A stretch of 64,000 nucleotides of DNA from an uncultured Chloroflexia bacterium (lineage in GTDB: Bacteria > Chloroflexota > Dehalococcoidia > SM23-28-2): NCBI GenBank assembly GCA_963701285.1, contig OY969584.1, positions 2,263,709 through 2,327,708 of the forward strand, in the 5' to 3' direction. How positions within the stretch are numbered: the stretch's first letter is position 1; the number at the start of each line of letters is the position of its first letter. Below are positions 15,033-33,876 of this stretch, piece by piece. Position numbers and translations under genes: made by a program. Below the pieces are notes generated by a model, which worked only from the letters and a program-made list of their open reading frames with translations, was not told where the DNA came from and ran no database searches.

Positions 15033-16932
15033 GTGCTAACATCTTTCGCCGAACAGATGTACGTCATCGGCACCGCCGGCCACGTCGACCACGGCAAGTC
15101 GACCCTGGTGAAGGCCCTCACCGGCATCGACCCCGACCGCCTCCAGGAGGAGAAGGAGCGGGAGATGACCATCGACCTCGGCTTCGCCTGGCTGCGCCTG
15201 CCCAGCGGCCAGGAGGTCAGCATCGTCGACGTGCCCGGCCACGAGCGCTTCATCAAGAACATGCTGGCCGGCGTGGGCGGCATCGACCTGGCCCTGCTGG
15301 TCATCGCCGCCGACGAGGGCGTGATGCCCCAGACCCGCGAGCACCTGGCCATCCTCGACCTCCTGGACGTGCGACATGGCATCGTCGTCGTCTCCAAGAA
15401 GGACCTGGTGCCGGACCCGGAGCTGCCTGGCGGTGGTGGAGGCCGAAATCACCGAAGCGATGGCCGGCACCGCGCTGAAAGAAGCACCCGTCCTCGCTTG
15501 CTCGGCGGTCAGCGGCGAGGGTCTCCCCGAGCTGCTCGCCGCCATTGAGACGGAGCTGACCCGCACGCCGGCCAAGCGCGACCTGGGCCGTCCTCGCCTG
15601 CCCATCGACCGCGTCTTCACGGTGGCCGGCTTCGGCACCGTGGTCACCGGCACCCTCATCGACGGCTCACTCCGCCCCGGCCACGAGGTGGAGGTGGTGC
15701 CAGGCGGGCTGCGGGCGCGCATCCGCGGCCTCCAGACCCACCAGCGCAAGGTGGAGGACGCCTCGCCCGGCCGCCGCCTGGCCGTCAACCTGAGCGGCCT
15801 CTCTCCCGCCGACCTGCGCCGTGGCATGGTCGTCACCACCCCCGGCTGGCTTCGGCCGACGACCGCGGTCGACGTCCGCCTGCGGGCGGTGCGATACGCA
15901 CCGCGCGCCATCCGTCACAACGTTCAGGTCACCTTCCACACCGGCGCCAGCGAGGTGCCCGGCCGCCTCCTCCTGCTGGACTGCGACGAGCTGGCCCCCG
16001 GCCAGCAGGCCTGGGCCCAGCTCCGGCTGGAGGAGCCCGTGGCCGTCGTTCCCGGCGAAGCCTTCGTCGTCCGCTCGCCCAACGATACCCTCGGCGGCGG
16101 CAGCGTGGTGGACGCCCACCCGCGCCGCCACCGCCGCTTCCACGGCCCGACCCTGGAGACGCTGGAGAAGCTGGCCCGCGGCTCGCCCGAGGAGGCGCTG
16201 CTGGTGGCGCTGGCCCGCCTGGAGCCGTGCGAGGCGGGCCAGCTCGCCCGCCACAGCGAGTTCGCCGCCGACGAGGCCATGGCCGCCGCCGCCGCGCTGG
16301 TGGCCAGCGGCCGCGCCGTGGCCCTGACCGCGGGCGAGCTGGCGCCATCGACCCTGCTCATCACCGCCGATGGCTTCGCTCGCCTCACCGCCCGCGCCCG
16401 GGAGGTCCTGTCGTCCTTCCACCGCCAGCACCCTCTGCGGCGGGGCGTCGCCCGCGAGGAGCTGCGCAATCGTTTGGGCTTGGAGGCCCGCCCCTTCGAC
16501 GCGTTCGTGGCGACCTCGGCCGGTCGCGGCGAGATTCGCGAGTCGGCGGGCAGTGTGGCGCTGGCCGACCACCAGCCGCGCCTTTCGCCCGCCCACCAGG
16601 CCGCCGCCGACGCCTTCCTGGCCGCCCTCAGGGCTGATCCCTACTCCCCACCCACCGACCGCCTGCCGGAACCCGAGCTCCTCGCCTTCCTCGAGGAGCA
16701 AGGACGGATCGTGCGTGTGGAAGGGGGTATCGCCTTCGCCCGCGAGGCGTATGATGAGATGACGACCCGCATTGTGGAGCACCTGCGCGCCCACGGCACC
16801 ATCACCCTGGCCCAGGTGCGCGACATGTTCTCGACCAGCCGCAAGTACGCCCAGGCCCTGCTGGAGCACCTGGACGACCAGCGCATCACCCGCCGCGTGG
16901 GCGACGAGCGGGTGCTGCGGAAGGGAGGCTGA
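15033..16932 (+). CDS. selB: selenocysteine-specific elongation factor SelB, reading frame interrupted by a 1-nt indel near 15424-15428
   Basis: The N-terminal GTPase domain ([27 protein letters not shown]) lies in the ORF 15033-15548. The remaining domains II/III and winged-helix domains lie in the ORF 15376-16932 in the +1 frame. Removing one C from gagctgcCtggcggtg restores ...[15 protein letters not shown]. No selA, selD or tRNA-Sec is in the window. Confidence 0.8.
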
Positions 16933-16954: not shown

Positions 16955-17305
16955 ATGGCGGAGACGAACCTAGCAGCCGTTTGTGGAATCTACTGCGGCG
17001 CGTGCAAATGCCTAGACGAGATGTGCAAGGGATGCAGTGCAGAGAAAGGAAGAGTGTTCTGGACAAAATCGGAAGAAACCCCTTGGGATACGTGCCCAAT
17101 ATGGGAGTGCTGTGTGGAACAGAAACGACTTCAACACTGCGGTCTCTGTTCCGATTTTCCCTGTAGCACATACCTTGAGTTGAAGGACCCCAACGACCCC
17201 GAAGCCGATTTGCACAAGCGGCAGAGTATTGAGAGTCTCAAGCATCGCACCGATGTCGGAACAAGGAGATGGCTTGAGGAACAAGAGGAGCTATCCGGCA
17301 AATAG
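16955..17305 (+). CDS. Cys-rich DUF3795-like protein
   Basis: 116-aa ORF with about 50% GC, clearly lower than its neighbours. Cysteine pattern CGIYCGACKC...CKGC...C..WECC...CGLCSDFPC. Confidence 0.55.
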   Translation: MAETNLAAVCGIYCGACKCLDEMCKGCSAEKGRVFWTKSEETPWDTCPIWECCVEQKRLQHCGLCSDFPCSTYLELKDPNDPEADLHKRQSIESLKHRTDVGTRRWLEEQEELSGK

Positions 17306-17340: not shown

Positions 17341-18573
17341 ATGACCCTCGACTTCCAGCGAGTCGCCGCCCAACTCGACGGCCTGGGCCCCCACCTGCGC
17401 TCGCGGGCCGGGGAGGCGCACGAACGGTTGACCCGCGCCCTCGAAGCTGTGCACGCTTGGGCCCGCCGGCCGGATGACTTGCGCCGCCGCCTGGCCGAGG
17501 CGGACACCCGCTGGCGGCTGGCCGAGCCCTTAGGCGAGCCCCTTGATGCGGCCATCGATCCGCCGCCTCCACCGGCCGACTACGTGGCCCTGGCCACCGA
17601 CGGCTCCCACATCGACGTCGACCGCCACAGCCCGCTGCCCTGCTACCTGATGAACCTCGGCTGCGCCCGCATCCGCTACGGCCGCTCGCCGGACGCCGAG
17701 CTCGCCAATGAGCCGGAGCTGGCCTATGCCGACCAGCGCCTCGTCCTGGGCGACCCCAGCGACGCCAGCCGAGAGGCAACCCTGCGCGGCGACCTCCTGG
17801 CCGCGCTCCGCAGTGTGCGCGAGGTGGAGCGGCTGGCCGACCTGGCGGCTGCCAGCGACGCCGACCTGCCCACCCTGGCTCTCGTCGACGGCACCTTCCT
17901 CCTCTGGGGCCTGGCCCGGGAGGAGATCACCGGCCCGGTCAAACGCTACCTTCTGGACGAAGGGATGATTCCCGCCCTCGACCGCCTGCAGGCGCTGGCC
18001 CGCGAAAGGCCGGTGCTCCCGGCGGGCTACGTCAGCCGGCCCGACCGGGGTGAGGTCGTCCATTCCCTGCGGGTGGCCGTCTGCCCCCTGCCCAGGGTCG
18101 ACTGCAAGGCCTGCCCCCGTCGCGACGGCGGCGAGCGACCCTGCGACGAAGTGGGCGTCGCTTCCGACCGCCAGCTCTTCGCCGCGCTCCTCGCCCCCGG
18201 CCAGCGGTCGGCCGTCTTCGCGCCCCAGCCCACGCCGAGGTCGATCGAAGCGGAGTACTACGGCGCCCACCGCCTGGCAATCTTCTACCTGCGAACGCCC
18301 GCCGGCGGCATCGACGAGATCGCCTGCGTGGAGATGCCCCTCTGGCTGGCCCAGGACGACCAGCGCGTAGCCTTGCTCCACGCCCTCCTCCTGGACCAGT
18401 GCCGCCGGAGCGTGGGCTATCCCCTGGCCCTTGCTGAAGCTCACGAGCAGGCGGTGATCACCGGGCCGGAGCGCGAGGTCTTCCGCAGCCTGCTGGAGAC
18501 GGAGGTGGCTGCCGCGGGGATGGTTGCATCGACATCGGCCAAAGCCTTGAGAAAGAGGGAGCGCGGGCTATGA
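17341..18573 (+). CDS. NurA-like 5'-3' nuclease domain protein
   Basis: 410-aa ORF with the NurA motifs ALATDGSHIDV (N-terminal catalytic Asp in D-G-S) and LALVDGTFLLWGL (second D-G motif). Its stop overlaps the next start (ATGA). Confidence 0.65.
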   Translation: MTLDFQRVAAQLDGLGPHLRSRAGEAHERLTRALEAVHAWARRPDDLRRRLAEADTRWRLAEPLGEPLDAAIDPPPPPADYVALATDGSHIDVDRHSPLPCYLMNLGCARIRYGRSPDAELANEPELAYADQRLVLGDPSDASREATLRGDLLAALRSVREVERLADLAAASDADLPTLALVDGTFLLWGLAREEITGPVKRYLLDEGMIPALDRLQALARERPVLPAGYVSRPDRGEVVHSLRVAVCPLPRVDCKACPRRDGGERPCDEVGVASDRQLFAALLAPGQRSAVFAPQPTPRSIEAEYYGAHRLAIFYLRTPAGGIDEIACVEMPLWLAQDDQRVALLHALLLDQCRRSVGYPLALAEAHEQAVITGPEREVFRSLLETEVAAAGMVASTSAKALRKRERGL

Positions 18574-19154
18574 ACGAAGCCCCACCGCAGATCATCGGGC
18601 AGGTGGTGCAGGCGGACATCGCCAGCTTCACCACCGGTTGCCCGTTGCTCCAGACGCCACCGCTGGGTAGCCTGCTCAGGGTAGACGAGGGCAACGCTAT
18701 CTTCGCTGTCGTCTGCGACGCCTCCACCGAGAGCATCGACGGCCGCCCGCCGGTGGCGCGCCTGTCCGGCGAGGCGGATCTGGAATCGTACCTGGAGACC
18801 CATCCCCACCTGCGCCATCTCCTCCAGACCAAGTGCGAGGCCGTCGTCGTCGGCCACCAGGACGGGGCCCAGTTCCACCACTATCTGCCGTCGGCGCCCG
18901 CCCCCCTCTTCGCCCCCGTCCGCCGCTGCTCGGCCGAGGAGACGGCCCGCTTCAGTCAGACTCTCGACTTCCTAAAGCTCCTCCTCGAGGCGCCCGCCCA
19001 CAGCGACGAGACGACCGCTGCCTGCCTGCGCCTGGCCGCCGCAGTCCACAGCGACGGCCGCGCCTTCCTGGTGCGGGCGGGCAAGGAGCTGGCGCGCCTG
19101 CTGGCGACCGAGCCCCAGCGCCTCACGTCCATCCTCAGGAGGGTGCGACCATGA
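18570..19154 (+). CDS. hypothetical protein, translationally coupled between the NurA-like and HerA-like genes
   Basis: 194-aa ORF with ATGA overlaps at both ends. No recognisable motif. The N-terminal IIGQVVQADIASF...GSLLRVDEGNAIFAVVCDA resembles a small beta-barrel pattern, which is speculative. Confidence 0.5.
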   Translation: MNEAPPQIIGQVVQADIASFTTGCPLLQTPPLGSLLRVDEGNAIFAVVCDASTESIDGRPPVARLSGEADLESYLETHPHLRHLLQTKCEAVVVGHQDGAQFHHYLPSAPAPLFAPVRRCSAEETARFSQTLDFLKLLLEAPAHSDETTAACLRLAAAVHSDGRAFLVRAGKELARLLATEPQRLTSILRRVRP

Positions 19155-20797
19155 ACGACCACGACTCGCCGACAGCGGACGCCCGGCGGCTGGGCCTGGT
19201 GGTGGGCGGCTCCCTGTCCGAGGGGCTCGATGTGCGCCTGGACAGCGGCCGCTCGGTGGAGGAGATGGCGGTGGGCAAGTACGTCATCATCCAGGGCCAG
19301 CGCTCCCGCTTCTTCGCCATCCTCAACGACGTGAAGCTGCGCTCCACCAGCGCCGAGATCGCCTGGTCGCTGCCGGAGCTGGCCGACGACTTCTCGCGCG
19401 AGGTGATGGCGGGCACCGCCACCTTCGGCAGCCTCCACGTGGTGCCCTACCTGAAGGTGGGGCCCACCGCCGACGCCCCCTTCGAGCCGGCCAAGACGGT
19501 GCCCGGCCACTTCGCCGAGGTGTGGGACGCCTCGCAGGAGGACGTGGAGCGCATCTTCGGCCAGGACGACGGCGACCACTTCGTCATCGGCAGCCCCTTG
19601 GACATGGAAGTGAAGGTCTGCCTCAACTACCAGCGCTTCGCCGAGCGCAGCAACGGCGTCTTCGGCAAGAGCGGCACCGGCAAGACCTTCCTCACCCGCC
19701 TCATCCTGGCCAGCGTCATCCTCAAAAGCGGCGCCCAGCGCGAGGCCCGCAAGCGGGTGGTCAACCTGGTTTTCGACATGCACAACGAGTACGGCTGGAA
19801 GGGCACAAGCGAGGGCCCCAGCGGCGAGGTCAAGGGCCTGAAGCAGCTCTTGGACGCCAGCGTCGCCGTCTTCACCCTCGACCCCGAGAGCTCGCGCCGC
19901 CGCGGCGTCCCCACCGACGCTGTGGTGGAGGTCGGCCTCGATGAGGTGGAGCCCGAGGACGTGGAGGTACTCAAGGAGACCCTCTACCTGACCGACCTGG
20001 CGGTGCAGGCCTGCTTCTCGCTGGAGCGCCACTTCCGCCGCGCCTGGATCCAGCAGGCCATCGCCCTGGACGCCGCCGATGAGGAAGGCCGCGACCTCCT
20101 GAAGAGCCTGAACATCGACGAGCGCTCCTTCCGGAACCTGCGCCGCGGCCTGGAGCGGCTGGCCCGCCTGGGCTTCCTCCACCCCCACAGCGACCAGAAG
20201 TCGGTGCAGACCATCCTCGGCTATCTGGAGAAAGGTCGCAACGTGGTCCTGGAGTTCGGCCGCTATGAGAACGACCTGACCGCTTACATCTTCGTCGCCA
20301 ACCTGCTCACCCGCCGCATCCACGAGCGCTACCGCCAGCAGACGGAGGCGGCCATGGGCGAGAGCGGCCAGGAGCCCATCCACCTGATGATCACCATCGA
20401 GGAAGCCCACAAGTTCCTCAACCCGGCCGTGGCCAGCCAGACGGTCTTCGGCCAGATCGCCCGCGAGATGCGCAAGTACAACGTCACCCTACTGATCGTC
20501 GACCAGCGGCCCAGCGCCATCGACGCGGAGGTCATGTCCCAGGTCGGGACCAAGATTGCCTGCCTGCTGGACAACGAGGCCGACGTGGACGCCGTCCTGG
20601 CCGGCGTGGGCGAGAAGCGCGAGCTGCGGTCGGTCCTGGCGCGGATGGAGTCGCGGCAGCAGGCGCTCATCTTCGGGCACGCCGTGCCCATGCCGGTGGT
20701 CGTCCGCACCGAGGAATACGGCTCGGAGGCGTCCTACGCCCGCTTCGCTGCGGCCCGCCCCTTCCGCGAGCGGCTGGAGGAGATGTACAGCGAATGA
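19151..20797 (+). CDS. HerA-like (FtsK-HerA superfamily, DUF87) ATPase/helicase
   Basis: The track ORF starts at 18833, but the ATG at 19151 gives MNDHDSPT... with a HAS-barrel-like N-terminus (LGLVVGGSLSEGLDVRLDS...VGKYVIIQG). Walker A is GKSGTGKTFL, Walker B is LMITIEEAHKF, and the HerA-type motif is LLIVDQRPSAID. Confidence 0.7.
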   Translation: MNDHDSPTADARRLGLVVGGSLSEGLDVRLDSGRSVEEMAVGKYVIIQGQRSRFFAILNDVKLRSTSAEIAWSLPELADDFSREVMAGTATFGSLHVVPYLKVGPTADAPFEPAKTVPGHFAEVWDASQEDVERIFGQDDGDHFVIGSPLDMEVKVCLNYQRFAERSNGVFGKSGTGKTFLTRLILASVILKSGAQREARKRVVNLVFDMHNEYGWKGTSEGPSGEVKGLKQLLDASVAVFTLDPESSRRRGVPTDAVVEVGLDEVEPEDVEVLKETLYLTDLAVQACFSLERHFRRAWIQQAIALDAADEEGRDLLKSLNIDERSFRNLRRGLERLARLGFLHPHSDQKSVQTILGYLEKGRNVVLEFGRYENDLTAYIFVANLLTRRIHERYRQQTEAAMGESGQEPIHLMITIEEAHKFLNPAVASQTVFGQIAREMRKYNVTLLIVDQRPSAIDAEVMSQVGTKIACLLDNEADVDAVLAGVGEKRELRSVLARMESRQQALIFGHAVPMPVVVRTEEYGSEASYARFAAARPFRERLEEMYSE

Positions 20798-20800
20798 CGT

Positions 20801-20828
20801 GTAGGGGCGGCTCGCGAGCTGCCCCTAC
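20801..20828 (+). terminator. hairpin terminator downstream of the herA-like gene
   Basis: gtaggggc-ggctcgcgagct-gcccctac, an 8-bp GC stem 4 nt after the stop codon. Confidence 0.45.
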
Positions 20829-20874
20829 ATCGCTCAGCCGTAGCCGCAGGGCTTCAGCCCTGCATTGCGTCCGC

Positions 20875-20902
20875 CTTGACAAGCCGCGCCCGCGCCGTAT
20901 GA
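20875..20902 (+). promoter_or_regulatory. sigma70-like promoter (TTGACA-16-TATGAT) for the lipoprotein gene
   Basis: Exact consensus hexamers about 40-80 nt upstream of the candidate starts at 20941 and 20983. Confidence 0.5.
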
Positions 20903-20940
20903 TCGGCCTGCGATTCGATGTCTAGCCGAGCGGCTTCCAT

Positions 20941-21756
20941 ATGAAGGTGAGGAATCCCGTGTCGGGTCATGCTGGCGCGAAAATGAGATCCTCCGTTTGC
21001 CCGGCCCTCAAACTACTGGCAGCCGGTGGAGCCCTTGCCCTGGCGGCCATATCCTGTGGCGGTGGCGAGGGACCCCCGCCTTCGGGTACGCCGACGCCCT
21101 CTGCGGCGGTGGCGGAAGGCCCAGACTTCGTGGTGCAAGGCGTGGATCCGGCCACGCTATGCTTCGATTTGGACGCCCTTCCCAGTGGTTTCGTTCTGGA
21201 CGGCGAAGGCGCGCGTGACAACGAGTCCGCCGCTCAGTTGGCGCCCGACCCTCGACAACGCGAGCAGGAGTACCAGACATGGGGTCGCATCAGCGGCTAC
21301 TATCGTCAGTGGGCCTTTTCGCCCCCCAGTGAGCTCAAAAAGGAAGAGGCGAGTCGCCTAAGCAAGGAGGAGGCAGACGCAGCGGAGGAAAGGGCGAGGC
21401 AAGAGATCCTGGCTGCGCCCTTCAGTGGGGCCACTTGTACTGTCGATCTCTACACTAATGCCCAGGGGGCGCGCGAAGCCTTCGCCGCTCTGGCCAGCGA
21501 TGTGAAGAACCCACCCGTACCCGCCGGCACCAAGGTCGACGTGGATGAAGGCGCCGGCCCTGGGATCGGCAGCGAGAGCAGGGCCTTTGCGCAACGATTT
21601 CAGGGGATCAACGTCTTCGTCGTCATCTTCGTGATGCGAAATGTTGTCGCACAGGCGTCTGTGGTCGCTCCCACAGAGAACGACGCCGCCGGTAGCGCAG
21701 AAGAGCTGGCACGAGCCCTGGGGGAGCTTCTCCACACCCGCTTACAGGTCGAATAG
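20941..21756 (+). CDS. hypothetical lipoprotein (alternative start 20983)
   Basis: Signal peptide ending in the lipobox LAAISC followed by GGGEGPPPSGTPTPS. There is an acidic, coiled region in the middle and no known domain. Confidence 0.6.
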   Translation: MKVRNPVSGHAGAKMRSSVCPALKLLAAGGALALAAISCGGGEGPPPSGTPTPSAAVAEGPDFVVQGVDPATLCFDLDALPSGFVLDGEGARDNESAAQLAPDPRQREQEYQTWGRISGYYRQWAFSPPSELKKEEASRLSKEEADAAEERARQEILAAPFSGATCTVDLYTNAQGAREAFAALASDVKNPPVPAGTKVDVDEGAGPGIGSESRAFAQRFQGINVFVVIFVMRNVVAQASVVAPTENDAAGSAEELARALGELLHTRLQVE

Positions 21757-28888: not shown

Positions 28889-31411
28889 TCAAAGCAGGCT
28901 CACCGGATCGATGTCCACTGTCCAGGCCTGGGGCAAAGAGAGCGCGCCCAGGAGCTCCGCCGGGTCGCCGCCGCGCAGGGTGATCTGCCAGCGATAGCGC
29001 CCTCGCACTCTCGGCACCAGCGCCGGCGCCGGCCCCAGCACGTCCAGGTTCGCGATGCCCCGCACATCGCGCTCGCGGCGGAGCGCAGCCGCCAACTGCA
29101 GCGCCTTTTCCTGGGCTAGCGCCGCGTTCGTATGACCGAACACCAATCGGGCTAGCCGCCCGAACGGGGGATAGCCCAGGCGCCGGCGTAAGTTGACCTC
29201 GTGCTCGTAGAAGGCGGCGTAGTCGTGGCGGGCGGCGGCCTCGATGGCGTAGTGATGGGGGGTGTAGGTCTGGATGATGACTCGCCCGCCCCGCGGGCCG
29301 CGACCGGCGCGTCCCGCCACCTGCTCCAGCAGCTGGAACGTTCGCTCGCCGCTGCGATAGTCGGGCAGGTTCAGGCCCACGTCGGCGGAGATGACGCCCA
29401 CCAGCGTCACAGCCGGCATGTCCAGCCCTTTGGCGATCATCTGAGTTCCGATGAGAATGTCGGCGTCGTGGGCCAGAAAACGCGCCAGGATGCGCTCGTG
29501 CGAGCCCCGCCGCCGCGTCACGTCGCGGTCCCAGCGTAGGAGGCGAGCGCCGGGGAAGGCGTAGGTCGCCTCCTCCTCCACCTTCTCGGTGCCAATCCCC
29601 AGGAACCGGATGCGCGCGCTCTGACACTGAGGGCAGCGCTCCGGCAGGCGGCGGCCGCGATGGCAGTGGTGGCAAACCAGGCGCTCCTCCGCCGCGTGAT
29701 AGGTCAGGGAAACGGCGCAGGCGGAGCAGGTGGGAACGTAGCCGCAGTCGCGGCACTGGACGAAGGAAGCGGCCCCCCGGCGGTTGAGGAAGAGGATGAC
29801 CTGCTCGTGCGCGCCCACAGCCTCGGCCACGGCTCGCCCCAGCGAGCGGCTGAAGATGCTGCGGTTGCCCGCCTTCAGCTCGCGGCGCAGGTCCACCACC
29901 TCCACCGCCGGCAACGGCCGGACGACACAAGACTCCCCGCCCTCGCTGGCGGCAGCCGGAGGCTGATCCGCCTCGGCCAGAGGCTGCACCCGCTCCCGCA
30001 ACTCCAGGACGCGATAGCGGCCGACCCTGGCCTTGTGGTAGCTCTCCAGGTCGGGGGTGGCGCTGCCAAGCACCAGGACGGCGCCGGTCAGCTCGGCCAG
30101 CTTCTCGGCTACGGCGCGGGCATGGTAGCGAGGCGCCGGCTCCTCCTGCTTGTACGTCCACTCGTGCTCCTCGTCCACCACGATCAGCCCCAGGTCGGGT
30201 TGCGGCGCGAAGACGGCGCTGCGCGCACCGACGACCACGGCGTAGTGCCCGTCGCGGATGCGCCGCCACTGGTCGAACTGCTGGCCGAGGGAGAGAGCGC
30301 TGTGCATGACGGCCACCTGGCCGGGAAAGCGCTCGGCGAAGCGCCGTATCGTCTGCGGAGTGAGGGATATCTCCGGCACCAGGACGATGGCCCGCCGGCC
30401 CAGAGCGATCGTGCGCTCCAGCGCCTGCAGGTAGACCTCCGTCTTGCCGCTGCCGGTGACGCCGTAGAGCAAGAAGACCGGCGCCGCCTCGCCCTCGCGC
30501 CCTTCCAGGGCAACCGCTATCTCTCGGTAGGCCGCCTCCTGGGCCGACGTGAGCAGCGGCGGCTCGCGCGGCGAGACCTCCAGGTCGGCCAGAGGGTCCC
30601 GCTCCACCTCCACGTCCTCGACCGCCACCAACCCTCGCTCCACGAGCTCGCGCAGCCCCGCCTGGCCGATCCTGGTCTCGGCCCGCAGCCTGGCCAGGGG
30701 CAGCGGCGAGCCCTCACCGGCCAGAGAGTTGAGGACCGCCGCCATCGGCCCCCGCCGCGCTCTTGACCGTCGGCCGCCCTCGCAATCGGCGCGCAGCAGG
30801 CCCGTCGCCGCCTCGGCTCTGGCGGCTTCGCGCTCCACCAGTAGGCGGACGTGGGGCACCACCTTCGCACGCACCTTCGGTCGCCCCAGCTCATAGCGAC
30901 GCTCCACCAGGCCCCGGCCGACGAGCTGATCCACCAGCCCGCCCAGGCTGCGCAGGCCGGCCTCGCGGCGCAGCTCCTCCTGCTCGACCTCGCCGCGGCC
31001 GACCAGCGCCTCCAGCGCCTGGCGCTGCCGCGGCGTCAGGTCCAGCGCTGCAATGGCCTCGCGCGCCACCAGCGGCCGCAGCTGGGTCAGTGGCTTGCGA
31101 CGGAAGCCGGGCGGGAGCATGAGGGCGACGCAATCGAAGATGGGAGCCAGGTAATGGTCGCTGATCCAGCGGGCCAGAGCGGCCCGCTCGGGCGAGAGGA
31201 GAGGCCGGCCATCCATAGCGGCGGTGATGTCCCGCGTCTCGGGAAAGCGCGGCTCTTCGCTGACCTCCAGCACCACCCCCTGCAGGGTGCGGCTGCCGAA
31301 GGGCACGTAGACCGCCTGGCCCACCGCCACGCTGAGACCATTGGGGAGGGAGTAGGTGAAGGTGCGACGATGAGGCGCAGTGGAGTTGACGGCTACTTCG
31401 GCGAAGGGCAT
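28889..31411 (-). CDS. priA: primosomal protein N' (replication restart helicase PriA)
   Basis: DEXH helicase Walker A LLYGVTGSGKTEVY and a Cys-rich zinc-binding insertion CRDCGYVPTCSACAVSLTYH...CHHCH...CPQC. The ATG start at 31411 gives MPFAEVAVNS. The track ORF extends to a GTG at 31444. Confidence 0.9.
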   Translation of the reverse strand: MPFAEVAVNSTAPHRRTFTYSLPNGLSVAVGQAVYVPFGSRTLQGVVLEVSEEPRFPETRDITAAMDGRPLLSPERAALARWISDHYLAPIFDCVALMLPPGFRRKPLTQLRPLVAREAIAALDLTPRQRQALEALVGRGEVEQEELRREAGLRSLGGLVDQLVGRGLVERRYELGRPKVRAKVVPHVRLLVEREAARAEAATGLLRADCEGGRRSRARRGPMAAVLNSLAGEGSPLPLARLRAETRIGQAGLRELVERGLVAVEDVEVERDPLADLEVSPREPPLLTSAQEAAYREIAVALEGREGEAAPVFLLYGVTGSGKTEVYLQALERTIALGRRAIVLVPEISLTPQTIRRFAERFPGQVAVMHSALSLGQQFDQWRRIRDGHYAVVVGARSAVFAPQPDLGLIVVDEEHEWTYKQEEPAPRYHARAVAEKLAELTGAVLVLGSATPDLESYHKARVGRYRVLELRERVQPLAEADQPPAAASEGGESCVVRPLPAVEVVDLRRELKAGNRSIFSRSLGRAVAEAVGAHEQVILFLNRRGAASFVQCRDCGYVPTCSACAVSLTYHAAEERLVCHHCHRGRRLPERCPQCQSARIRFLGIGTEKVEEEATYAFPGARLLRWDRDVTRRRGSHERILARFLAHDADILIGTQMIAKGLDMPAVTLVGVISADVGLNLPDYRSGERTFQLLEQVAGRAGRGPRGGRVIIQTYTPHHYAIEAAARHDYAAFYEHEVNLRRRLGYPPFGRLARLVFGHTNAALAQEKALQLAAALRRERDVRGIANLDVLGPAPALVPRVRGRYRWQITLRGGDPAELLGALSLPQAWTVDIDPVSLL

Positions 31412-31533
31412 GGCGCGGACACCCGAGGCCAATATATCACCCACCGCCAGCAGATCGAAGCGAGGGCTGGCACCGCAGCCCTCGCCTGCCTCGCCGCCCC
31501 GCCTCAGGCGGGCCTACTCTTCTTCCTCTTCCT
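31401..31533. repeat. diverged direct repeat A, a copy of the priA-5' / rplS-3' intergenic segment (pairs with 32497-32612)
   Basis: About 85% identity to copy B. Copy A carries the real priA start and a remnant of the rplS poly-Glu end plus stop (ctactcttcttcctcttcctc, which is the reverse complement of GAGGAAGAGGAAGAAGAGTAG). Confidence 0.7.
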
Positions 31534-33792: not shown

Positions 33793-33876
33793 CTCACTGT
33801 CATCCGTCGCGGTTCGAAGGCTTCCGTAGGGGCAGTTCGCGAACCGCCCCTACACCCGGATCCCACCCGCGTCGAG

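What the first reader, a model, noticed from the sequence alone, without database searches (positions are those of the whole stretch)
17341..20797. Translationally coupled NurA-like nuclease / unknown 194-aa protein / HerA-like ATPase operon
Three genes are fused by ATGA stop-start overlaps at 18570-18573 and 19151-19154.
- Gene 1 carries both NurA catalytic motifs (TDGSH and LVDGTF).
- Gene 3 is a HerA/FtsK-superfamily ATPase with Walker A GKSGTGKT, Walker B IEEAH, an LLIVDQRPS motif and a HAS-barrel-like N-terminus.
- The middle gene has no recognisable domain.

HerA-NurA is the archaeal and Deinococcus-Thermus DNA-end-resection pair. HerA-family ATPases are also the motor of several recently described anti-phage systems, such as HerA-SIR2 and HerA-DUF4297. 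A three-gene version with an obligatorily co-translated extra subunit is not a described architecture, to my knowledge.

The GC content here is host-like (about 70%), so a resident repair or restart module is as plausible as a defence system. A Cys-rich low-GC DUF3795 gene sits 35 bp upstream, and selB ends only 22 bp before that, so the whole stretch may be one transcript.
Basis: partly seen in the sequence, partly recalled or inferred. Interest (0 to 1): 0.75.

Follow-up and report, generated by a model that had tools for sequence, protein, structure and literature searches.

The report
HerA–NurA module with solo HAS-barrel subunit
The "unknown" middle gene encodes a free-standing copy of the barrel domain that HerA DNA motors use to dock the NurA nuclease, and it is always translated together with HerA across a whole class of bacteria, which points to an undescribed third subunit of a known DNA-end-processing machine.

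Summary
Three same-strand genes (17341-18573, 18570-19154, 19151-20797) are joined by ATGA stop/start overlaps. Gene 1 is NurA and gene 3 is a HerA ATPase with intact Walker motifs.

It belongs to an unannotated family of about 485 clusters, essentially confined to Chloroflexota/Dehalococcoidia.
- The gene directly precedes HerA in 83 of 83 related loci.
- Stop and start overlap in 78 of 84 loci, always with a Shine-Dalgarno written into its last codons.
- NurA lies upstream on the same strand in 55 of 55 loci with enough flank, but abuts only in the window's clade.

The context is housekeeping, GC is host-like, and nothing matches plasmids, phages or viral contigs.

Best reading: a vertically inherited NurA-HerA DNA-end-processing module with a stoichiometric accessory HAS-barrel subunit acting at HerA's NurA-docking face. 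This is a new variant of a known system. The subunit's exact role is inferred, not shown.

The parts
17341..18573 (+). NurA-family nuclease gene (410 aa). The NurA domain covers residues 84-373.
   Evidence: Pfam NurA 2.7e-21, profile positions 4-254 of 254. D87/G88/S89 and D182/G183 are at least 95% conserved in 54 orthologues. Orthologue found upstream on the same strand in 55 of 55 related loci with at least 2.5 kb of flank.
18082..18144 (+). Conserved Cys4 cluster inside NurA (C248, C255, C258, C268; CPx5CxxCx9C). Probably a metal-binding insertion.
   Evidence: C248, C258 and C268 are identical in at least 95% of 54 orthologues and C255 in at least 80%. Metal binding is inferred.
18555..18561 (+). 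Shine-Dalgarno-like GAGGGAG inside the NurA 3' end, 8 nt before the middle gene's ATG.
   Evidence: Read from the sequence.
18570..18573 (+). ATGA overlap between the NurA stop and the middle gene's start.
   Evidence: Overlap (-4 or -10) is conserved in 11 of 60 related loci, all from the closest clade plus a few others.
18570..19154 (+). Stand-alone HAS-barrel protein (194 aa): beta-barrel at residues 8-119 (nt 18591-18926) plus a helical bundle at residues 122-192 (nt 18933-19145).
18720..18824 (+). Most conserved surface element of the middle protein: loop at residues 51-70 (T53, G58, R59, P61, A63, E68; family consensus DPGRRPxARG) plus helices 71-84 (P79, L81, L84, L85).
   Evidence: Invariant columns in alignment A1. 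The loop has low pLDDT (53-74) despite its conservation. Its equivalence to HerA's NurA-contacting alpha1 helix and preceding loop is inferred from strand order and a weak hhalign register, not from a superposition.
19137..19142 (+). AGGAGG Shine-Dalgarno for HerA. It is written into codons R190-R191 of the middle gene, 8 nt before the HerA ATG.
   Evidence: All 78 overlapping junctions carry an SD core of at least 4 nt, 5-11 nt before the HerA start (8 nt in 48). 67 of 78 have at least 5 nt. The amino acid varies (RR, GR, ER, KR) while the GGAGG/GAGG bases are kept.
19151..19154 (+). ATGA overlap between the middle gene's stop and the HerA start.
   Evidence: Overlap of 4 nt in 65 loci, 1 nt in 9 and 8 nt in 4, out of 84.
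19151..20797 (+). HerA-type hexameric ATPase/translocase gene (548 aa): own HAS-barrel at residues 15-103 and ATPase core from about residue 145.
   Evidence: Pfam DUF87 1.4e-23 and HAS-barrel 3.7e-5. Best PDB sequence matches are HerA chains. Walker A GKSGTGKT, Walker B ITIEEAH and VDQRPS are at least 95% conserved in 68 orthologues.
20800..20829 (+). 30-nt palindrome 3 nt after the HerA stop. Probably the operon's 3' hairpin, or a REP-like element.
   Evidence: 15-nt arms, 93% complementary. A second copy at 33826-33853 carries compensatory stem changes, with 0 matches expected by chance. There is no T-run, so its terminator function is inferred.

Best explanation
This is a chromosomal, vertically inherited NurA-HerA DNA-end-processing module of Dehalococcoidia-class Chloroflexota. 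In this lineage it carries a third, dedicated subunit.

The third subunit is a 194-aa protein made of a HerA-type HAS-barrel plus a small helical bundle. It is produced in fixed proportion with HerA by translational coupling: its stop overlaps the HerA start, and the HerA ribosome-binding site is written into its last codons.

Proposed mechanism:
1. HerA forms the ATP-driven hexameric DNA translocase.
2. NurA supplies the nuclease.
3. The solo HAS-barrel protein binds at or stacks on HerA's HAS-barrel face, which is where NurA docks in every solved HerA-NurA complex.
4. There it acts as an adaptor or collar that sets how, or when, NurA is coupled to the motor.

Shown here: the identity of the three folds, the strict linkage and coupling, the lineage distribution, and the non-mobile housekeeping context.

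Inferred, not shown: a physical complex with HerA, the stoichiometry, the site of binding, and a role in end resection for recombinational repair or fork restart.
For: - NurA and HerA assignments with conserved catalytic, Walker A and Walker B motifs.
- It directly precedes HerA in 83 of 83 loci. Stop and start overlap in 78 of 84. An SD core lies inside its C-terminal codons in 78 of 78 overlapping junctions, with the bases kept while the amino acid varies.
- NurA is upstream on the same strand in 55 of 55 loci with at least 2.5 kb of flank.
- The three genes' distance matrices correlate at r = 0.88-0.92, so they are co-inherited.
- 349 loci in species-representative genomes; the best 80 are nearly all labelled Chloroflexota/Dehalococcoidia, including SAR202.
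- No match for the middle protein in plasmids, phages or IMG/VR viral contigs, none for NurA in plasmids, and no PHROGs family for either.
- Neighbours are AspRS, a HemN-like enzyme, SelB, SecDF, CCA-adding enzyme and PriA. GC is host-like.
- In solved complexes the HAS domain, specifically its alpha1 helix and preceding loop, is the NurA docking surface of a HerA6:NurA2 assembly (PMC9960219; PMC12977600).
- The middle protein's most conserved element is the loop-plus-helix at the corresponding place in its barrel.
Against: - No direct evidence of a complex.
- HerA here keeps its own complete HAS-barrel, so an extra barrel is not obviously needed.
- The profile-profile match between the middle protein family and the partner HerA barrel is weak (E = 0.16), so the structural equivalence of the conserved loop is not proven.
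- The C-terminal helical domain gave no informative match.
- The biological role of bacterial NurA-HerA is itself unsettled.
- HerA's closest solved sequence relatives are anti-phage HerAs, not Deinococcus HerA.
- NurA is often separated from the pair by 0.2-5.8 kb of unrelated genes, so NurA need not be made in fixed proportion with the other two.
Confidence: 0.6

Rival explanations
1. The middle protein is a negative regulator or decoy. As a HAS-barrel mimic it occupies NurA, or caps HerA's docking face, so that the nuclease stays uncoupled from the motor until DNA damage or a DNA end displaces it.
For: - It has the same fold as the NurA docking domain (PMC9960219; PMC12977600).
- The partial correlation of evolutionary distances is highest for NurA and the middle protein (0.63, against 0.24 for the middle protein and HerA). 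This is a weak hint only.
- The conserved but flexible loop carries a basic GRRPxARG motif followed by an acidic run in many members.
Against: - Strict translational coupling to HerA rather than to NurA suggests the fixed ratio matters with HerA.
- A pure inhibitor would be expected to be lost more often, yet it is present in 83 of 83 loci.
- Mirror-tree partial correlations are confounded by rate differences.
Confidence: 0.2
2. The trio is an anti-phage or anti-plasmid defence system: HerA as motor or sensor platform, NurA as the DNA-degrading effector, and the middle protein as regulator. This would be analogous to SIR2-HerA, HerA-DUF4297 or TdpAB.
For: - HerA's best PDB sequence hits are SIR2-HerA and other anti-phage HerAs (8wiv 6.9e-16, 8xau 7.6e-15).
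- PADLOC HerA models match at up to 9.2e-30.
- NCBIfam anti-phage HerA models score slightly above the repair HerA models, although all are far below their cut-offs.
Against: - No PADLOC hit for NurA or the middle protein.
- The PADLOC and NCBIfam anti-phage HerA matches have their best stretch in the C-terminal ATPase part (about residues 382-528 at the widest), which all HerAs share.
- Retention in every fetched Dehalococcoidia locus with enough flank, with congruent divergence of the three genes.
- Housekeeping neighbours and host-like GC.
- The middle protein is absent from plasmids, phages and IMG/VR, and NurA from plasmids.
- No SIR2, DUF4297 or other known effector partner is present.
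Confidence: 0.15
3. The middle protein is an assembly factor that nucleates or stabilises the HerA hexamer through barrel-barrel contacts and is not part of the working machine.
For: - HAS-barrels form the ring-closing crown in HerA and in F1/V1 ATPases (PMC9960219).
- Co-translation with HerA would place it next to nascent HerA.
Against: - Other HerAs assemble without such a factor (PMC9960219; PMC12977600).
- Coupled translation yields roughly equimolar product, which is wasteful for a catalytic chaperone.
- The conserved surface loop-helix and the conserved C-terminal bundle suggest a lasting partner interface.
Confidence: 0.05

Closest known systems
Bacterial NurA-HerA of Deinococcus radiodurans (PDB 7wrw, 7wrx, 7f6d; PMC9960219)
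   Same: - Bacterial chromosomal nurA-herA operon with the nuclease gene first.
- HerA has a HAS-barrel, a RecA-like core and a helical insertion.
- NurA docks on the HAS-barrel ring.
- Proposed role in DSB end resection.
   Different: - The Deinococcus system is described as a two-gene operon with no separate HAS-barrel protein.
- The window's HerA is so diverged that Deinococcus HerA does not appear among PDB sequence hits at E <= 1e-3.
- The window's NurA has no PDB sequence hit at all and carries a conserved Cys4 cluster.
Archaeal HerA-NurA (Sulfolobus 4d2i; Thermococcus kodakarensis 9x1l/9x1m; PMC3326311, PMC12977600)
   Same: - HerA6:NurA2 architecture.
- The HAS domain is the NurA interface.
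   Different: - The archaeal genes sit with mre11-rad50; none was seen among the neighbours examined here (roughly 14 kb upstream and 10 kb downstream).
- There is no free-standing barrel subunit.
- The NCBIfam archaeal HerA equivalogs score far below their cut-offs (61.8 against 970; 58.5 against 800).
Anti-phage HerA systems (SIR2-HerA/Nezha, HerA-DUF4297, TdpAB)
   Same: - A HerA hexamer whose HAS-barrel face carries an effector.
- HerA sequence similarity in the C-terminal ATPase part.
- The barrels of these HerAs also match the middle protein structurally.
   Different: - The effector partners (SIR2, DUF4297, TdpB) are absent.
- The partner here is NurA.
- There is no defence-island or mobile context.
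- The module is conserved across a whole class.
HAS-barrel domain (Pfam PF09378), the N-terminal crown of F1/V1/FliI-type ATPases
   Different: Here the barrel is a separate polypeptide with its own C-terminal helical bundle and no ATPase domain. The window protein itself scores nothing against PF09378 at E <= 1.

Membership tests
NurA nuclease (PF09376) | Significant full-length match to the NurA domain profile | tested here: met
   76.7 bits against a cut-off of 21; profile positions 4-254 of 254; residues 84-373.
NurA nuclease (PF09376) | Conserved acidic catalytic motifs (DGS motif I and the later xDG motif) | tested here: met
   ATDGSH (D87) and LVDGTF (D182) are present and at least 95% conserved in 54 orthologues. 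That these are the catalytic positions rests on established knowledge of NurA, not on a superposition.
NurA nuclease (PF09376) | 5'-3' exo/endonuclease activity stimulated by HerA | not testable with these tools
   Needs biochemistry.
HerA (FtsK-HerA superfamily ATPase) | DUF87/HerA central ATPase domain with Walker A and Walker B | tested here: met
   PF01935, 84.5 bits against 23.2. GKSGTGKT and ITIEEAH are at least 95% conserved.
HerA (FtsK-HerA superfamily ATPase) | N-terminal HAS-barrel | tested here: inconclusive
   PF09378 scores 24.2 bits, just below its 25.2 cut-off, at residues 15-103. No structure was predicted for HerA itself.
HerA equivalogs of NCBIfam (archaeal repair HerA; anti-phage HerA) | Score above the equivalog cut-off | tested here: not met
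   Best scores are 77 against 800 (anti-phage) and 61.8 against 970 (repair). This is a separate HerA clade.
HAS-barrel domain (PF09378), applied to the middle protein | Sequence match to the Pfam profile | tested here: inconclusive
   The window protein has no hit at E <= 1. 28 of 68 family members hit at E <= 0.1, best 2.7e-9. Seven homologues carry the precomputed annotation.
HAS-barrel domain (PF09378), applied to the middle protein | Beta-barrel fold shared by the HerA and F1/V1 ATPase N-termini | tested here: met
Known anti-phage HerA systems (SIR2-HerA, HerA-DUF4297, TdpAB) | Adjacent SIR2, DUF4297 or TdpB effector gene | tested here: not met
   The neighbours are NurA and the HAS-barrel protein. 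PADLOC gives no hit for either.
Known anti-phage HerA systems (SIR2-HerA, HerA-DUF4297, TdpAB) | Patchy distribution in defence islands or on mobile elements | tested here: not met
   Housekeeping neighbours. No plasmid, phage or IMG/VR match for the middle protein, and no plasmid match for NurA. Present in every fetched locus with enough flank, with congruent divergence of the three genes.
Archaeal herA-mre11-rad50-nurA operon | Linkage to mre11 and rad50 | tested here: not met
   No such genes were found among the ORFs examined from 3.6 to 31.4 kb of the window, nor between NurA and HerA in related loci. The rest of the genome was not examined.

The most novel reading that the evidence does not exclude
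The solo HAS-barrel protein forms its own ring, probably hexameric, that stacks coaxially between the HerA hexamer and the NurA dimer. The result would be a three-tier machine in which the NurA-docking platform has been split off from the motor as an exchangeable, separately evolving subunit. That would be a natural example of modular effector docking on HerA motors, the principle that anti-phage HerA systems also exploit.
Probability: 0.3. Interest if true: 0.7.

Novelty: new variant of a known kind. Interest (0 to 1): 0.55.

Why it matters
HerA hexamers are the motor of archaeal and bacterial end resection and of several recently solved anti-phage systems. In all of them the HAS-barrel face is where the effector docks.

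A lineage in which an extra HAS-barrel is a separate subunit, strictly co-translated with HerA, gives a natural handle on how effector docking and motor activity are coupled.

It also adds a component to DNA repair in Dehalococcoidia and SAR202, abundant but poorly tractable bacteria important in the subsurface, the oceans and bioremediation.

Finally, it assigns a fold and a functional partner to an unannotated family of about 485 sequence clusters, labelled "hypothetical protein" wherever a source names it.

Tried and rejected
1. Linked-chain co-fold of the middle protein with HerA residues 1-145, using a 30-row paired alignment (A3).
3. Profile search of the middle family against PDB sequences. 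Nothing found (best E = 1.7).
4. hhalign of the middle family against the partner HerA N-terminus. Weak (E = 0.16), so the idea of a recent duplication of HerA's own barrel is rejected.
5. A conserved fourth gene between NurA and the middle gene. Rejected: the intervening ORFs are heterogeneous (IS200/RAYT-like transposase in 13 loci, glutaminyl cyclase, LOG-family protein, M20 peptidase, GNAT).
6. DUF3795 or selB as part of the module. Rejected: DUF3795 is conserved next to NurA in only 1 related locus.
7. A NurA to middle-protein fusion (P0248, 372 aa). It comes from a 2x-coverage contig with a fragmented NurA and is probably a frameshift artefact.
8. Rfam gathering search of the window. No hits.
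9. AFDB50 fold library. Unavailable.
10. The founding FtsK-HerA/HAS-barrel comparative-genomics paper could not be read. An early mention of solo HAS-barrel proteins there cannot be excluded.
11. Organism guess of Tepidiforma. The organism is left unidentified.
12. The first alignment given to the genome scan (A2) was too diverse to yield search patterns, so A1 was used instead.
Full report
**Observation.**
- Both ATGA stop/start overlaps are present in the sequence.
- The public protein collection holds exactly these three products for a 2,656,704-bp contig held by NCBI and ENA.
- The quoted motifs (TDGSH, LVDGTF, GKSGTGKT, IEEAH, LLIVDQRPS) and the 35-nt and 22-nt gaps to DUF3795 and selB are correct.
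- GC across the trio is 67-73%, like its surroundings. The bin covering the DUF3795 gene is 58%.

**Genes 1 and 3.**
- Gene 1 matches Pfam NurA over the whole profile (76.7 bits, cut-off 21). Its two acidic motifs are at least 95% conserved in 54 orthologues.
- Gene 3 matches the HerA central domain (84.5 bits, cut-off 23.2). It has an N-terminal HAS-barrel signal just under threshold (24.2 against 25.2).
- Its Walker A, Walker B and VDQRPS motifs are at least 95% conserved in 68 orthologues.
- Its best PDB sequence relatives are HerA chains: SIR2-HerA 8wiv, 8xau, HerA-DUF4297, Sulfolobus 4d2i and Thermococcus 9x1l.
- All NCBIfam HerA equivalogs score about tenfold below their cut-offs, so this is a separate HerA clade.
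- NurA has no PDB sequence hit.

**Gene 2 is a stand-alone HAS-barrel protein.** The window protein hits nothing in Pfam, NCBIfam, PADLOC or PHROGs. It nevertheless belongs to a sizeable family:
- 462 clusters in the word-indexed search, named "hypothetical protein" wherever a source gives a name.
- 485 clusters at 50% identity in the exhaustive search, almost all 190-210 aa.

Evidence for the fold:
- Seven homologues carry a precomputed PF09378 annotation.
- When 68 diverse members were scanned, 28 matched HAS-barrel, best 2.7e-9.
- An AlphaFold2 model built on 23 sequences is confident (pLDDT 87, pTM 0.82). It shows a beta-barrel at residues 8-119 followed by a helical bundle at residues 122-192.
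- All 50 listed Foldseek matches against the PDB are HerA chains.

It is not a recent copy of its partner's barrel: the profile-profile comparison with the partner HerA N-terminus is weak (E = 0.16). The C-terminal bundle could not be assigned.

**Linkage.** A scan of one genome per species found 349 loci encoding a relative, and the best 80 were fetched.
- Across these and three metagenomic contigs, the gene is directly followed by HerA on the same strand in 83 of 83 loci.
- Its stop overlaps the HerA start in 78 of 84 loci, counting the window: by 4 nt in 65, by 1 nt in 9 and by 8 nt in 4.
- In all 78 overlapping junctions a Shine-Dalgarno core lies 5-11 nt before the HerA start, inside the last codons of gene 2.
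- The residue at that place varies (RR, GR, ER, KR) while the GGAGG/GAGG bases are kept. The coupling is therefore itself under selection.
- NurA is upstream on the same strand in 55 of 55 loci with at least 2.5 kb of flank, at 6-5783 nt (median 954).
- NurA overlaps gene 2 in only 11 of 60 loci.
- The genes in between are unrelated housekeeping or mobile genes, with no conserved fourth member.

The invariant core is therefore gene 2 plus HerA, with NurA a constant but looser neighbour. The fully fused trio is a feature of the window's clade.

**Distribution and context.**
- The fetched loci are almost all labelled Dehalococcoidia or Chloroflexota, including SAR202. One carries an Acidobacteriota label and one a delta-proteobacterium label; both are metagenome bins.
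- Identities to the window are 48-78% for HerA, 40-67% for gene 2 and 37-67% for NurA.
- The three pairwise-distance matrices correlate at r = 0.88-0.92, as expected for genes inherited together.
- Gene 2 has no match in 72,556 plasmids, 50,697 phage genomes or IMG/VR viral contigs, and NurA has none in the plasmids.
- The window neighbours are a solute-binding protein, AspRS, a HemN-like enzyme, a deacetylase, SelB, SecDF, CCA-adding enzyme and PriA.
- A palindrome follows the HerA stop, and a strong promoter-like site precedes the next gene, so the transcription unit ends at HerA.

**Mechanism.**
- In both solved HerA-NurA complexes a HerA hexamer docks a NurA dimer through the HAS domain. 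In Thermococcus the contacts are the alpha1 helices and the loops before them (PMC12977600). In Deinococcus the interface is ionic (PMC9960219).
- The most conserved surface of the middle protein is a loop (T53, G58, R59, P61, A63, E68; consensus DPGRRPxARG) and the helices after it (P79, L81, L84, L85). They are inserted between barrel strands at the corresponding position. The loop is predicted to be flexible despite its conservation.
- Taken with the obligatory co-translation with HerA, the most likely reading is a stoichiometric accessory subunit that works at the HAS face of the motor, as an adaptor or collar for NurA.
- This step is inference: no interface could be predicted here.
- The rivals are a decoy or gate that keeps NurA uncoupled, a defence system, and an assembly factor. 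They are listed with their tests.
- Chance adjacency is excluded.

**Comparison and novelty.** It works like bacterial and archaeal HerA-NurA.
- It differs from the Deinococcus system, which is described as a two-gene operon (PMC9960219).
- It differs from the archaeal system, which is linked to mre11-rad50.
- It differs from the anti-phage HerA systems, which use SIR2, DUF4297 or TdpB effectors and have a patchy, island-borne distribution.
- No paper describing a separate HAS-barrel subunit was found. The 2004 paper that defined the HAS-barrel could not be read.

I rate it a new variant of a known kind, of moderate interest.

Noticed in passing
window 15033-16932, indel at 15425: selB is split into two reading frames (15033-15548 and 15376-16932). 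The window has GAGCTGCCTGG where an independent read-based assembly of the same sequence (L086) has GAGCT-CCTGG, which restores one frame (…[12 protein letters not shown]…). This is either a 1-nt assembly error or a real selB pseudogene in this strain.
   Followed up: partly
window 20800-20829 and 33826-33853: A 28-30-nt GC-rich palindrome (GTAGGGGCGGCTCGCGAGCTGCCCCTAC) occurs twice in the window. The two copies differ by compensatory changes that keep the stem, and none is expected by chance. It looks like a REP-like element or a T-less terminator hairpin.
   Followed up: partly
window 18082-18144 (NurA residues 248-268): NurA of this clade carries a conserved Cys4 cluster (CPx5CxxCx9C; at least 80-95% conserved in 54 orthologues). 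This suggests a zinc-binding insertion, which to my knowledge is not described for studied NurA proteins.
   Followed up: partly
window 19137-19142: Dual coding: the AGG AGG codons for R190-R191 of the middle protein are also the Shine-Dalgarno of herA. Across 78 loci the bases are kept while the first residue varies (R, G, E or K).
   Followed up: yes
window 16955-17305: The Cys-rich DUF3795 gene (Pfam 7.4e-7) lies in a low-GC bin (58%, against about 70% around it). It is conserved next to NurA in only one related locus (L006, 82% identity), so it is probably a recent insertion rather than part of the module.
   Followed up: partly
L025:537-1100 and 12 other related loci: In 13 Dehalococcoidia loci, an ORF of about 187 aa resembling an IS200/RAYT-type Y1 transposase sits on the same strand. 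In 12 of them it ends within about 70 nt of the middle gene, often overlapping its start.
   Followed up: no
L084:3450-5167: An apparent NurA to HAS-barrel fusion protein (P0248, 372 aa) comes from a 2x-coverage contig in which NurA is fragmented. It is most likely a frameshift artefact rather than a true Rosetta-stone fusion.
   Followed up: partly
window 20876-21756: A near-consensus sigma-70-type promoter (TTGACA-16-TATGAT, 11 of 12) precedes a 271-aa ORF. The ORF has what looks by eye like a signal-peptide or lipoprotein-type N-terminus (not tested) and no Pfam match.
   Followed up: no
window 28889-31441 (- strand): The replication-restart helicase PriA lies about 8 kb downstream of the module. 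The proximity may be coincidental and was not checked in related loci.
   Followed up: no
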